In this document: positions 22,601-28,600 of the stretch, piece after piece | Layout: every line of letters begins with the position of its first letter | Position numbering within the stretch: the stretch's first letter is position 1 | Made by a program: the position numbers | Source: Carcharhinus amblyrhynchos | Taxonomy: Eukaryota | Length of the DNA: 64,000 bases | Direction: 5' to 3' | Assembly (NCBI GenBank): GCA_965287045.1 | Contig: OZ336870.1 | Location: 101,432,001-101,496,000, forward strand

Positions 22601-25600
22601 CACAAGTTGTCTTTGGTGCTGAAAATTGCCATTGTGCTGTACTTATCCCATTGTTTTGGTGGTTTCCAGGAAATTATTCCAATTATATTGTACTAAGTTT
22701 ACTTAACACTCTGACAAGGTCATATGGACTCAACAATATTTTATTTATCTCTCCACAGATGCTGCCAGAACTGCTGAGTTTTTCTAGCATTTTCTGTTTT
22801 TAATTAATGTGTATGTGGATAGAAGGAAATGAAATTTGCTCTTGTATGCGGTAATAATTGAAATGAACACTTATTTTATATTGTACATTTCCATTAATAT
22901 ATAACATTAATCCTTTTAGACCTTCCTCAGAACTGTGATCGCAACATTCCTCTAGTTGCTCAGGAAATAATGAAAAGAATGATTCGTCAATTTGCAATTG
23001 AATATATATCCAGAAGTAATCATGTTCATGAAAATCAGACTGGATCGACCGATGAATCTGTTTCAGTCCCAAATGATCCTCCTGCCAAGCAAACTCAGAA
23101 CTTTCACCAGGAGCAGGAGGGACCCCTAGACCTCACTGTGAATAAAAATCAACCGAAAAATTTTCAACAAGGTAATCAGATTTCTTTTCTAATAATTGAG
23201 TGTTTCAGATTTCAGTATGTGTGCACATGTAAATATAGTTATTGAGGAAAGACTGTAACAGTACATTACCACAATATTTATTTTATCATTGGAACCTGGA
23301 TTCATTGCCAGCTCAGAAATAATGTAATGAAAATCAGTGACATAACCTAATTCTAAGTAAGTGCAAGCAACAAATTGACAACCATACTCGCTTTAAATAT
23401 ATAATTAATTAAAAGTGGAATAAAATATGATACGGTCAGTATTGGTTCACAGTCAGGTCAGTTCATGGCACGTTTTAAAGTGGGATGACTTTCTCTGGTT
23501 GCTGATTTTAGAGTGCACCGGTGAAAATGTTTTTTTAAATGGATAGGAATATTGTTAGCAAAGCCAGCTTTTGTTGTTCATTCCCAATGGGGACAATTGC
23601 TATCCGTGTACTGTAGGTACACCGTGGTACTATAGCATAACAAAACTAGAAAATGAATTCTACACCCCATAACGCTGCAGCCATTCTCATCTGTTGTAAC
23701 TTCTACCAGCATGACAAGAACATTTGTGCATGTGCATTCAATCCACGCTGCAGGTACCAGCACATGTACAGCTGTTGGGACAGGGTGGAATTTTTCCATG
23801 TCTTACTACATGAAATCTTGTTTTTTAACACTGCCTCTTTACATCACCATTAAGTGAGCGTTTAGCATTGTGATTGACAATTAACATATTCTTAAAGCTC
23901 TACAGTGGTACCCAGGTAGAGAAACAGCTGCAGCTTCAGAGGGGTCACCTCACTTCCATATACATCACTAATTAACTTGCTACAATCCATAATAAATCAG
24001 ATCTTTGAAAATAAACAAAATAAATTAGTTAATTTAAATATTGTTTCCTGCCCAGTGTGTTAAGGGAACCCCTTGTGTTTCCCAATCATTTCAGATGGAT
24101 GATAATGAGACTTTGAATCATTGTTTTGAATCTTGTAAATTTCTTAGAAGTGTTTTATACTTCTATGGGTTTTTGCCATTAAAAAGTTGCAACTAATTCT
24201 CCATAGTCTTAAGTTCATTGGAAGCTGGGCGTCTCATTTATTGAAATTTCTTTTTTTACACACACATGTTATTTTATACATCATTCACAGAATTTTCAGA
24301 AGCATGTTTTACAGAGGGAACAGTTGATAAATGATAGGTAAAATAGGTATCAGAATTTGTATGTGAAGAACTGTGCAGACCCAAAAATTGCTAATTTGAA
24401 TTTTATCTTTAACTTCAAGCCAACTTGTTTGTTTTAATGCAGCAGCCAATACTCTGACACTGTGTGCAGGAAATACTCCTCCTGGTATCATGGCATAATT
24501 AAACATCCTGTCTCACCAACATATAAAATATATCTTTTAGATTTTTATAAAATTAACCTGTTCTTGAATTTCTTTTATGCAAGTTGTTATCCGAACTTCA
24601 TGTACAAACTGAAAAACAGGAGCATATTCTGTAATAAGCAACTTGATTATTCAGAATTCTGTGAATCTTAGAACATGATCACTACAGCACAGAAGGAGGA
24701 CACTCATACTGTCGTGTCCATGTTGGTTCTTCACAAGAGACTTTGCAAAGACTGGCAGCCAACACTGAAGTGGAATCCTAAAGGCTTTCTGTAGACATAT
24801 AAACAGTAAAAGGAGTACGGCCAGTTAGGCATCAGAAAAGGAATTTGCACATGGTAGCAGGGGGACTGGCTAAGACCAAGCCCAAGATGGGGTGCAATAC
24901 CTTATCTTGTCAGCTTTTACCTTGTTTGTCCCTCTTGAGGAGACCATGAATTGGATTCCATTTGAATTTGGTTTTTTGTAACGAGTAAAAATGAATTAAA
25001 AACAAAAAATTAAATCAGTACTTTGCATCTGGCTTTACCAAGGAGGTTGATGGAGACCAATGAAGAAAATTTGTCCCTAGAACGGCTCAAAATTGATATG
25101 GTGGAAGTGTTGAATTGAAAGTTGACATGACATTGGGACAGGATGAGATGTTCCCAAGGATGTACATGTGCTGGTACCTGCAGCGTGGATTGAATGCACA
25201 TGCACAAATGTTCTTGTCATGCTGGTAGAAGTTACAACAGATGAGAATGGCTGCAGCGTTATGGGGTGTAGAATTCATTTTCTAGTTTTGTTATGCTATA
25301 GTACCACGGTGTACCTACAGTACACGGATAGCAATTGTCCCCATTGGGAATGAACAACAAAAGCTGGCTTTGCTAACAATATTCCTATCCATTTAAAAAA
25401 ACATTTTCACCGGTGCACTCTAAAATCAGCAACCAGAGAAAGTCATCCCACTTTAAAACGTGCCATGAACTGACCTGACTGTGAACCAATACTGACCGTA
25501 TCATATTTTATTCCACTTTTAATTAATTATATATTTAAAGCAAGTATGGTTGTCAATTTGTTGCTTGCACTTACTTAGAATTAGGTTATGTCACTGATTT

Positions 25601-28600
25601 TCATTACATTATTTCTGAGCTGGCAATGAATCCAGGTTCCAATGATAAAATAAATATTGTGGTAATGTACTGTTACAGTCTTTCCTCAATAACTATAGGA
25701 AGTGAGAGTGGAACTGCAGGGGTGTTGGCAATCTTTGTCTCCTTTAGATTCAAGAGATTCCAGAGGATTGTCAAGTTGCAAATGTTATGTATGCCCTTGT
25801 TCAAAAAAGAGAGAGCCCCAGCAGTGGAGTGGGCAAATAAATGGCCGATGAAGTTCAATGCGGAGGAGTGTGAAATGATGCATTTTGATGAGAAGAACAT
25901 GGAGATACAATACAAAATAAGGGGTAAAATTCTTAAGAGGATGCAGGAGCATAGATTATTGAAGATGGCAAGACAAATGGGGAGAGCAGTTAATAAAACA
26001 TGTAGTATCCTAGGCTTTATTAATAGGGCAATAGAGTACAAGAGCAGGAGGTTAGACAAGACACCAGTTAGACCTTAGCTGGTGTATTTTGTACAGTCCT
26101 GAGTGCAATACTGTAGGAAAGATGTGAGCGTATAGGAGAATGGTTCTACGGATGTAGCACTTTGGTTATGAGGGTAGGTTGGGGAGGTTCACATTGTTCT
26201 TCTCCTTGCAGAGAAGAACACCAAGAGGAGATTTGATTGAAATGTTCGAAATAAAGGGGCTGGACAGAGTAGAAAGGGAGAAACTGTTCCCCCTTGTAAA
26301 AGGTTCAAGAATGAGCAGGTGCAGAATTGAAATGATTTGTAAAAGAAGCAAATGTGATGAGGGGGAAAAAAAAATTTTCACACAATGAATTGTTTGGGTC
26401 TGGAATGCACTGTCTGGAAACTTATTGGAGGCAAGTTCAATGGAGACATTCAAGATTTCATTAGATGATTTGAATAGAAACAATATGCAGGCGAATGGCA
26501 CTGAGTCATAATGCTCATTTAGAGAACTGGTGCAGACATGGGAGGGCTGAATGGCCTGCACCACAACTATTTTGTGATAATACTCAATGTAGTAAAAGAC
26601 AAATGTGCAATTTTTGTGACTTTTAACTTGTTTTGTTTTGTTCTCATGAGCTTTAGTTCAAACCAATAAGAGTGATTTGCTTTAAAACACACTCAACTGG
26701 CTAATTTCTCTATCAAATTCTAGATATGGAATTAGATGATCAAAATGAACGATGAAGAAAGACTTGAAGGGCCAAATGGCCTAGTTCTGCTTTTTTCTAT
26801 GTTTCGATAAATTGTGTAAGCTTTCTAAATTTAATTTACTGTATCTTGCTTACCTAAAAATGGTGCACTGTCTGATAGCCGATTGTAGTCAATTTTCCTT
26901 AAAATCCCTCGCAGGCGCCCTGATATCAGAAGTTGAATGTGTTTACAGGCCAAAGGCTGGGAGTTTATACTGCAGGCTGCAGTATAAACTGTCTGCACCT
27001 GAATATAAAGTGTCAGTGATCTAGGAATGGAATGAACCATTGTGGCTAATTTTTGTTAAAATACAAACTGTCAGATTTATACTATTGACAATTCAGCATA
27101 TTTTAGGCCTAACACTGAAGATGCAAGCAATGATTTTTGATTACATTCTAGTCAGAAGTATGGAGCATCGATGTCTCAAACTTCAGTGTATTAATACAAT
27201 TATACTGAAGTTTGTGTAGTCCTGATCCCCAAAAGTAACATTTATGGAGATTAGCTTAAGCATGCAAGTCTCTTGAATCAAAATACCTATGTATATATTG
27301 TTATGCATTTGGTTTGTGTGTTTAGACAGTCATGCTTTCTCACTGCCTGAACAATCAATTTTAGCACATTGCTGAACTTTACATCAACCCCTACAGAAAA
27401 AATAACTTGAACTAATATATTTTCATTTTCACCCTACTTAGCGCAACATTTTTTTTGTTTCAGTTGTTAAATCCTGAATGAAGTGCAACAGAGTACCTAC
27501 TGCTTTGTGGAGCTCACACCACTTGTGTGTATGCATTAAGCACCCTGTACAGTACAATTTGTAACACGTGGTCTGAGTCACTCATTAGTATGGTCAAGGT
27601 AATTTCTGAAGCTAAGATCACATGGGAGGATAAAAAAGAGAAATTAAGTTGAAGGATCTTTTTGAATGCTTGGTTGGCGTAGTATTTCATTTGTGTGAGG
27701 TAAAAGGAACACTAGAATCCGTTGCTTTTATGATCAGCCTAGTCCTTTGGCTATGAATCTCACTATTATAGCCTCTTATCCTTGTGTCTTTCTAATTTCA
27801 GGTGCAGCCAGTGAATTATTTTCTCTACCATGACATCTATCCCATCTTTGTTTGGTGTCAGATTGTACTAGAGTTGAGAGATGCATTTGTTCATTATTTG
27901 AAGTGAAAAATGATGAGCCTGCAAATGTTGCCAGTGAGTTGAGTATGCATAGGATAAGTTCGTGCTGATGTATAAGCCATTTTTGGCTCTGGTAGTCTTT
28001 AAAACCTTTGCCCAGAAGTGGCTGGAGATGTGCGTAACTATTCATTTGACTGAATTTATTTTTGAATTTAGTAGCAAAATATATGCAATGAAGAAAGTTG
28101 ACCAGGCTCTCTGTGCTGTGGATGACGTCATGAAAAACAGTTGATGCTTCCTCCTTTGCATCCCTGGCAGTGGATGGTCTAAGATTTATTTAGGCTTTTG
28201 TATATTGATATGGAGGAAAGTAGAATAAATCTGATTGCAAGAAGAGCCAGTTATAATGGGAGTCCTATGATTCTTTGGAAGCAACAGATAAGGTTCCAAT
28301 GATAGCAATGCTTTGGGGCAGCTTTAGAAATTTTGTTGGGGATAAAGAATTATCAGTGACCTGCTGGGGAAAAATAAACATGTGATTCTTCATGGTTGCA
28401 GTTTATTTTGATGCTTTTGAGGTAGGTGATAAGCCAGAATATTGCAAAATGGCAGAGCAGATTGAAGGAACCAGATGGCTTAGTCTTGTTTCTATTTCCC
28501 ATAGAAAGCGAAAAACCAGGATGTGCACTGTGATTAGTCAGGCACTGATTGTCTTCATTCCTAATCAACAAATTTTATGCCTGCCCCTGCAACTTCCACC

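What the first reader, a model, noticed from the sequence alone, without database searches (positions are those of the whole stretch)
23234..25697. Near-perfect 537-bp inverted duplication starting 62 nt after LCORL exon 5
Seen: 23234-23770 and 25161-25697 are reverse complements with no indels and one mismatch at a CpG, separated by 1390 bp. The duplicated DNA is not a recognisable transposon. The right copy splits a CR1 fossil with only a few bases lost, so it is the derived copy. Inference: a very recent templated insertion (polymerase theta-mediated end joining or MMBIR-like repair). In the pre-mRNA it would form a ~0.5-kb perfect duplex next to the exon 5 donor. That is a candidate ADAR substrate, endo-siRNA source or splicing modifier, and a substrate for inversion of the spacer.
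Basis: partly seen in the sequence, partly recalled or inferred. Interest (0 to 1): 0.65.

Follow-up and report, generated by a model that had tools for sequence, protein, structure and literature searches.

The report
Young 537-bp inverted duplication in intron
Two almost identical 537-base copies of one sequence sit in opposite orientation 1.4 kb apart at the start of a long intron of an LCoR-family gene; it looks like a recent DNA copying accident with no shown function.

Summary
Bases 23234-23770 and 25161-25697 are reverse complements, 536 of 537 matching without indels. The one mismatch is at a CpG, the spacer is 1390 bp, and the left arm starts 62 nt after a GT donor.

The unit has no third copy in the 64 kb. 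It has no Rfam, tRNA or Pfam signal and no plasmid match.

The right arm does interrupt a CR1-like LINE fossil. But the left arm also looks inserted. The 11 nt just before it repeat its own last 11 nt (10 of 11). In a position-locked test this was the only such case among 63451 starts.

That is what a template switch copying the right arm into the left site would leave.

Best reading: a recent local inverted templated duplication, a known kind of event, though larger and farther from its template than the cases I read about. As pre-mRNA the arms would form a 536-bp duplex; any effect on editing, small RNAs or splicing is untested.

Genome-wide copy number, raw reads and other species could not be checked. 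Interest is modest.

The parts
22920..23171 (+). Coding exon of an LCoR-family gene. AG acceptor ends at 22919 and the GT donor is at 23172.
   Evidence: Open frame and splice dinucleotides read. The exon alone has no Pfam hit above cut-off. The gene assignment rests on the downstream ORF at 41942-43096.
23223..23233 (+). R1: an 11-mer directly left of the left arm. It matches the last 11 nt of the arm (R2) at 10 of 11 positions.
   Evidence: It is the only position-locked hit at lag 537 among 63451 starts. In the whole window, both strands, three further sites match R2 at 10 of 11 or better besides R1, R2 and R2's copy in the right arm.
23234..23770 (+). Left arm of the inverted repeat (537 bp, 8 CpG, 37% G+C). 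Its last 11 nt, 23760-23770, are R2.
23775..23798 (+). h1: a 24-nt direct match (19 of 24) to h2. It lies 4 nt inside the left arm's inner end.
23771..25160 (.). Spacer of 1390 bp. Its right third (about 24750-25159, + strand) is the 5' part of the CR1-like fossil.
25133..25156 (+). h2: in-frame CR1-like coding remnant just left of the right arm. It contains a short internal inverted repeat.
   Evidence: sequence read.
25161..25697 (-). Right arm, the reverse complement of the left arm. It is flanked by GGA on both sides (25158-25160 and 25698-25700).
25698..26400 (+). 3' part of the CR1-like fossil, continuing the reading order of the 5' part. It has an internal gap where the RT core should be. 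The right end is approximate.
   Evidence: 38 of 95 residues are identical (E = 4e-18) to the ORF at 47534-48112, which has a sub-threshold RVT_1 match. DNA matches to 36099-36294 and 62285-62338.
41942..43096 (+). Next LCoR-like coding block, with two HTH_psq domains. It fixes the gene's strand and shows that the repeat lies at the 5' end of an intron of roughly 19 kb.
   Evidence: Pfam HTH_psq E = 1.5e-26, two stretches. PDB 2cob 'LCoR protein' E = 7.1e-28.

Best explanation
This is a real, recent, local inverted duplication made by template switching, either at a stalled fork or during break repair. A growing DNA end left its own template, copied 537 nt of a sequence 1.4 kb away on the opposite strand, and came back. 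The junctions favour this order. The unit already lay inside the CR1-like fossil (right arm). It was then copied in reverse complement into the site 62 nt downstream of the exon (left arm). The switch was anchored by an 11-nt microhomology between the end of the unit and the target, and the target 11-mer ended up on both sides of the new copy. Later one CpG changed; if so, deamination in the right copy is the likelier direction. Shown: the repeat, its borders, the 11-nt repeat, the CR1-like collinearity and the predicted RNA duplex. Inferred: the mechanism, the direction and the age. At 1 difference in 537, with recalled vertebrate rates, the age is of the order of a million years, with very wide error. 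The transcribed intron would fold into a 536-bp perfect duplex closing a 1.39-kb loop. My expectation is that this is neutral or nearly so.
For: - 536 of 537 identity with knife-sharp outer borders.
- No third copy in 64 kb.
- No Rfam hit at gathering score over the window, and none at E up to 1 over 23100-25800. No tRNA. 0 of 10 ORFs from the arms and spacer have a Pfam hit. No plasmid match.
- R1 and R2 match at 10 of 11 exactly at the left arm's borders, 1 of 63451 position-locked starts. A four-point template switch whose return point lies 11 nt behind its departure point gives exactly this product.
- The left arm's flanks form an imperfect inverted pair. This is weak support: 2 of 500 shuffles, but 53 of 4000 natural loci score as high.
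- The CR1-like 5' and 3' parts are collinear across the right arm, so the unit was inserted there too, at some earlier time.
- In the paper I read, an inverted copy of a nearby template flanked by microhomology is the stated signature of MMBIR-type templated insertions (PMC8421209, passages). Template switching is described as making perfect reverse-complement repeats in one event (PMC8794818, passages).
Against: - The other junction of the left arm shows no microhomology: about 1 of 11 positions match, by my own reading.
- The events in the papers I read are far smaller. Templates lie within 100 bp, and the largest pattern mentioned is 59 bp.
- The single mismatch inside R2 needs a mismatched primer or later repair.
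- If the right arm is the source, its own origin inside the fossil stays unexplained.
- The direct 24-nt h1/h2 repeat just inside both arms fits no version of the model.
- No reads, no second genome and no genome-wide copy count were available.
Confidence: 0.4

Rival explanations
1. The left arm is native intron sequence, and a break or stalled fork inside the CR1-like fossil was repaired by copying it in reverse (templated insertion). In one variant, the 11-nt direct repeats R1 and R2 looped out one 537-bp period as a small circle or fragment, which was then captured at the break.
For: The right arm splits a collinear CR1-like fossil. GGA on both sides of the arm could be a 3-nt junction duplication. 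The insert length equals the R1-R2 period, as the circle variant requires.
Against: Without the circle variant, the R1/R2 repeat at the source borders is an unexplained coincidence (1 of 63451). With it, the circle must have opened within or at the 11-mer, roughly 12 of 537 positions by my arithmetic. The inverted 6-mer near the inner junction is not above background (307 of 4000). There is no microhomology at the outer junction: the inverted alignment score of the outer flanks is 6.
Confidence: 0.25
2. The 537-bp unit is a young mobile or repeatedly captured element, and both arms are independent insertions from a third copy elsewhere in the genome.
For: Both arms look like insertions: the right one in a LINE fossil, the left one bordered by an 11-nt direct repeat. 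The window holds older local inverted pairs, and one of them belongs to a dispersed repeat.
Against: - The target-site duplications are inconsistent. The 11-mer counts as a duplication only if the element is 526 bp, yet the right arm carries that 11-mer as part of the shared 537 bp. A 537-bp element gives GGA at the right site and nothing at the left.
- By reading, the unit has no terminal inverted repeats and no A-rich or microsatellite tail.
- No tRNA or Rfam hit, no Pfam hit and no third copy or fragment in 64 kb.
- Two insertions 1.4 kb apart that differ at one base would be a marked coincidence.
Confidence: 0.15
3. Assembly artefact: the second copy was created by a chimeric read or a mis-join and does not exist in the animal.
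For: Near-perfect identity. No read data were available to me.
Against: The copy is a clean 537-bp insertion inside unique sequence, with both flanks continuing a single fossil. It is not a fold-back at a contig end. The copies differ at one CpG, which is what real, separately evolving copies would show. No N or gap lies nearby. No other such duplicate is in the window: every other repeat found is at most 97% identical.
Confidence: 0.08
4. An old inverted duplication whose arms are kept identical by gene conversion, so near-identity does not mean youth.
For: Inverted repeats of this size and spacing can convert each other (general knowledge, recalled). Weak residual similarity continues for 12 nt inside the arms, 7 of 12 matching.
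Against: Identity falls from 100% to background within a few bases at both ends. Conversion tracts would more likely leave graded edges. No diverged homology is seen beyond the arms apart from the short h1/h2 patch, and that patch is direct, not inverted.
Confidence: 0.07

Closest known systems
MMBIR-type templated insertions (MMB-TI) and FoSTeS-like template switches
   Same: An insertion that is an inverted copy of a nearby template. Microhomology is present at a junction. The event sits close to an imperfect palindrome, if that palindrome is real (PMC8421209, passages).
   Different: The cases described there are short and lie within 100 bp of the template. Here the copy is 537 bp long and 1390 bp away. 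Clear microhomology was found at only one junction.
Short template-switch mutations that create perfect hairpins (Loytynoja and co-workers)
   Same: One event creates a perfect reverse-complement repeat able to form a stem (PMC8794818, passages; PMC5453318 and bioRxiv 10.1101/2023.04.19.537475, listing and start of abstract only).
   Different: Those events span tens of bases; the largest mentioned in the passages I saw is 59 bp. This one is about ten times longer and has a kilobase loop.
Fold-back inverted duplications and ODIRA
   Same: Strand switching at short inverted repeats yields inverted copies separated by a spacer (PMC3907307 and PMC10766183, listing and start of abstract only).
   Different: Those are large copy-number changes that run on for kilobases to megabases. 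Here the copied tract stops after 537 nt and the flank resumes.
Intronic inverted repeat pairs that form dsRNA edited by ADAR (for example inverted Alu pairs)
   Same: Two inverted copies within one transcript are predicted to pair over their whole length. A-to-I editing is reported as ancient in metazoans (PMC9989829, start of abstract only).
   Different: The arms are not a dispersed repeat family as far as the window shows. No RNA data exist here. The duplex is perfect and longer than a typical Alu pair (recalled).

Membership tests
Templated inverted insertion by template switching (MMB-TI signature) | [quoted passage not shown] | tested here: met
   536 of 537 identity, 1390 bp apart. This is beyond the 100-bp search radius used in PMC8421209.
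Templated inverted insertion by template switching (MMB-TI signature) | Microhomology at both junctions. | tested here: inconclusive
   If the left arm is the new copy, one junction has 10 of 11 and the other none. If the right arm is the new copy, there is only GGA/GGA plus a non-significant 6-mer (307 of 4000).
Templated inverted insertion by template switching (MMB-TI signature) | An empty ancestral site exists. | not testable with these tools
   No other genome or allele of this organism was available. The open collections hold only prokaryotes, phages and plasmids.
Transposable element (the unit itself, or the whole 2464 bp as a long-TIR or foldback element) | Target-site duplications that are consistent across copies or flank the whole element. 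| tested here: not met
   The flanks of the whole element, ending at 23233 and starting at 25698, share nothing: the inverted score is 6 and no direct repeat is visible. The per-arm duplications are inconsistent. The spacer contains half of a fossil whose other half lies outside the right arm, so the 2464 bp did not arrive as one element.
Transposable element (the unit itself, or the whole 2464 bp as a long-TIR or foldback element) | Many copies in the genome. | not testable with these tools
   Only 2 copies in the 64-kb window. No genome of the organism was on hand.
Transposable element (the unit itself, or the whole 2464 bp as a long-TIR or foldback element) | Coding capacity or a pol III/tRNA-derived head. 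| tested here: not met
   0 of 10 ORFs have a Pfam hit. No tRNA. No Rfam hit.
Inversion with staggered breaks (inverted duplications at the breakpoints) | The segment between the duplicates is inverted relative to the ancestral order. | tested here: not met
   The CR1-like 5' part in the spacer and the 3' part beyond the right arm lie on the same strand and in reading order. The spacer is therefore not inverted relative to the right flank.
CR1-like LINE (the interrupted fossil) | Similarity to a reverse-transcriptase-bearing LINE on both sides of the arm. | tested here: inconclusive
   The 3' side is 40% identical (E = 4e-18) to an ORF with a sub-threshold RVT_1 match of 18.6 bits against a cut-off of 29.6. 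It also matches two other copies at the DNA level. The 5' side is recognised only from motifs I recall for CR1-like elements. It has no database hit.
LCORL gene | LCoR-family HTH_psq protein encoded on the + strand. | tested here: met
   Pfam HTH_psq E = 1.5e-26. PDB 2cob LCoR E = 7.1e-28.
LCORL gene | LCORL rather than its paralogue LCOR; exon number 5. | not tested
   No reference proteome or synteny was available.
hpRNA, endo-siRNA or miRNA locus | Small RNAs or a known RNA family mapping to the arms. | not testable with these tools
   No Rfam match. No RNA data.

The most novel reading that the evidence does not exclude
A single template-switch event created, next to the splice donor of a conserved exon of an LCoR-family regulator, a perfect half-kilobase intronic hairpin. 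This hairpin would now be a newborn hairpin-RNA locus, either an ADAR hyper-editing target or a Dicer substrate, or a splicing modifier of the host gene. It would be a vertebrate case of an RNA-hairpin gene caught at birth, at a scale about ten times larger than the template-switch hairpins described so far.
Probability: 0.06. Interest if true: 0.7.

Novelty: new member of a known kind. Interest (0 to 1): 0.3.

Why it matters
If it is real, it is a clean natural example of a long inverted templated copy whose two junctions are still readable. That helps in studying how template switching picks its entry and exit points, and how long perfect hairpins arise in one step. For the gene itself, the hairpin would shorten the effective intron and give a strong dsRNA in the pre-mRNA, and the arms can invert the 1.39-kb spacer by recombination. 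None of this is shown to have any effect. The event class is well known, so the main value is as a marker polymorphism and a mechanistic specimen.

Tried and rejected
- Looked for a second CR1-like copy spanning the insertion site, to count the lost bases. None was found by blastn, by tblastn of the translated flanks, or by a motif scan and inspection of 12700-13250 and 40350-40700.
- Tested whether h1 belongs to a longer CR1-like relic. There is no support: 2343 of 3000 and 105 of 3000 random 60-mers score as high.
- The inverted 6-mer microhomology at the inner junction was rejected as evidence (307 of 4000).
- The quasi-palindrome around the left arm was kept only as weak support (53 of 4000).
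- The staggered-break inversion model was rejected on CR1-like collinearity.
- Helitron, SINE and TIR readings of the unit were rejected after reading its ends and finding no tRNA or Rfam hit.
- Vector or bacterial contamination: no plasmid match. Phage and E. coli collections were not searched.
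Full report
**1. The observation**

The tool finds a single inverted pair in 22000-27000. A base-by-base comparison shows 536 of 537 matches between 23234-23770 and the reverse complement of 25161-25697, with no indel. The one mismatch is 23389 against 25542. In the same sense the left copy reads CG and the right copy TG, and the arm holds 8 CpG in all.

Identity ends abruptly. On the outer side only 1 of the 9 positions 23225-23233 pairs. On the inner side 7 of the next 12 pair, which is why the tool draws the arms as 549 nt. 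The spacer is 1390 bp and the window has no N.

The exon ends at 23171 with GT at 23172, so 62 intron bases precede the left arm. Chance is no issue: the next best match of the arm anywhere in the window has E = 0.34.

**2. The setting**

The exon at 22920-23171 is on the + strand. The next coding block of the same gene in the window is the open frame 41942-43096 (+). It carries two HTH_psq domains (Pfam E = 1.5e-26) and matches the solved LCoR HTH domain 2cob (E = 7.1e-28).

The gene therefore belongs to the LCoR family and is read left to right. The repeat lies at the 5' end of an intron of roughly 19 kb, unless small exons lie between. I searched the two coding blocks separately and did not build or search a joined model. 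LCORL against LCOR, and the exon number, stay unchecked.

The introns are full of CR1-like LINE remains. I do not take the window for human.

**3. What the unit is not**

| Check | Result |
|---|---|
| Third copy or fragment of the arm in 64 kb | none |
| Rfam, whole window at gathering score | none |
| Rfam, 23100-25800 at E up to 1 | none |
| tRNA | none |
| Pfam on 10 open frames from arms and spacer | 0 of 10 hit |
| Plasmid collection | no match |

The ends of the unit show no terminal inverted repeat and no A-rich or microsatellite tail (reading).

The whole 2464 bp cannot be one long-TIR element. Its spacer holds the 5' half of a fossil whose 3' half lies beyond the right arm.

**4. The right arm is an insertion**

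Left of it, one frame reads a CR1-like stretch that ends at 25159. Right of it, from 25698, the three frames together continue the same protein order up to the conserved block before the RT core. I recognise this order from memory of CR1-like elements; no database confirmed the 5' side.

The 3' side is tied to LINEs by tools. It shares 38 of 95 residues (E = 4e-18) with the frame 47534-48112, which has a sub-threshold RVT_1 match. It also has DNA matches to 36099-36294 and 62285-62338.

The arm is flanked by GGA on both sides. No other copy in the window spans the site.

**5. The left arm looks inserted too**

The 11 bases directly before it (R1, 23223-23233) match its own last 11 bases (R2, 23760-23770) at 10 of 11 positions. 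I slid a 537-bp frame along the window and asked how often the 11 nt before a start match the last 11 nt of the segment this well. The answer was 1 of 63451 starts, the real one.

This is the picture left by a template switch whose return point lies 11 nt behind its departure point. Two routes give the same product:
- A growing strand at the left site copies the right arm from 25697 down to 25161. Its new 3' end is R2, which pairs with the complement of R1 at the site it came from, and synthesis resumes there. The 11-mer then stands on both sides of the new copy.
- The mirror version, on the other strand, uses the same 11-mer as the entry primer, with 9 perfect bases at its 3' end.

Weak further support: the flanks of the left arm (23206-23233 and 23793-23818) are an imperfect inverted pair, so the empty site would be a quasi-palindrome. 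This passed 2 of 500 shuffles, but 53 of 4000 natural loci score as high.

**6.

The only candidate microhomology is an inverted 6-mer a few bases off the inner junction, and 307 of 4000 random pairs score as high. The outer flanks share nothing (score 6).

The R1/R2 repeat would then be a coincidence. The alternative is that one 537-bp period was looped out between R1 and R2 and captured at a break in the fossil. That requires the circle to have opened within the 11-mer, about 12 of 537 positions by my arithmetic.

If the right arm is the source, where it came from before entering the fossil is unknown.

**7. Unexplained**

A direct 24-nt repeat, h1 (23775-23798) and h2 (25133-25156), matches at 19 of 24 positions. 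Each copy lies 2-4 nt inside the inner end of an arm. It is the only match of that quality to h2 in both strands of the window, and 5 of 4000 random pairs reach its score.

h2 is CR1-like coding sequence, but I could not show that h1 belongs to a longer relic. None of my models predicts a direct repeat at that place.

**8. Age**

One difference in 537 sites, at a CpG, points to a recent event. Using vertebrate substitution rates that I recall, this is of the order of a million years, and the Poisson error spans two orders of magnitude. Arm-to-arm gene conversion could also keep an older pair alike, but the sharp borders argue against that.

**9. Consequences**

Folding 23100-25800 as RNA gives 536 in-register arm-to-arm pairs and -1374 kcal/mol. 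With the right arm shuffled the value is -657.5 kcal/mol. The duplex alone is worth -992 kcal/mol.

The pre-mRNA would therefore carry a perfect duplex starting 62 nt after the donor and closing a 1.39-kb loop. Editing by ADAR, dicing and effects on splicing are plausible from general knowledge (PMC9989829 and PMC12695637, start of abstracts only). Nothing here tests them. The arms can also invert the spacer by recombination; in this assembly the spacer is in the orientation that keeps the fossil collinear.

**10. Comparison with what is known**

In PMC8421209, inverted copies of a nearby template flanked by microhomology are the stated signature of MMBIR-type templated insertions. I read passages only; the tool described there looks within 100 bp. 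PMC8794818 describes template switching that makes perfect stems in one event. Again I read passages only, and the largest pattern mentioned is 59 bp.

Fold-back duplications and ODIRA (PMC3907307, PMC10766183) and synthesis-dependent MMEJ (PMC2943611) I saw only as listings and abstract starts.

The present case belongs to this kind but is about ten times longer and more distant from its template than the cases in those passages. I made no search aimed at showing that such a size is unreported, so I do not claim that it is.

**11. What stayed unchecked**

- Genome-wide copy number of the unit.
- Raw reads.
- Orthologous loci and alleles.
- RNA data.
- Paper supplements.

The open genome collection holds only prokaryotes and was not used.

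**12. Verdict**

This is a real-looking, young, local inverted duplication of a known mechanistic kind. No function is shown.

Noticed in passing
window 23775-23798 and 25133-25156: A direct 24-nt repeat (19 of 24) lies 2-4 nt inside the inner end of each arm of the inverted repeat. It is the only such match to h2 in both strands of the window. No model explains it.
   Followed up: partly
window 15460-15614 and 15790-15944: An older local inverted repeat: 155-nt arms, 84% complementary, 175-nt spacer. The arm has partial copies at 55664-55710 and 22718-22773, so it is probably a dispersed MITE- or foldback-like element.
   Followed up: partly
window 60547-60673 and 61833-61959: Another local inverted repeat: 127-nt arms, 87% complementary, 1159-nt spacer. 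It has no other copy in the window. It could be an older event of the same kind as the finding.
   Followed up: partly
window 25797-25840: The CR1-like fossil right of the right arm passes from the conserved block before the RT core straight to the block after it. The core of the reverse transcriptase has been deleted.
   Followed up: no
window 48152-48526 and 50009-50386; also 2222-2397 (-) and 9437-10191: Several CR1-like 3' ends are 81-97% identical to each other. Two of them lie 1.86 kb apart in direct orientation at 94-97%, which shows a fairly young LINE family in this genome.
   Followed up: no
window 41942-43096: A long open frame with two HTH_psq domains. This is the large coding exon of the LCoR-family gene. 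Its acceptor site was not mapped.
   Followed up: partly
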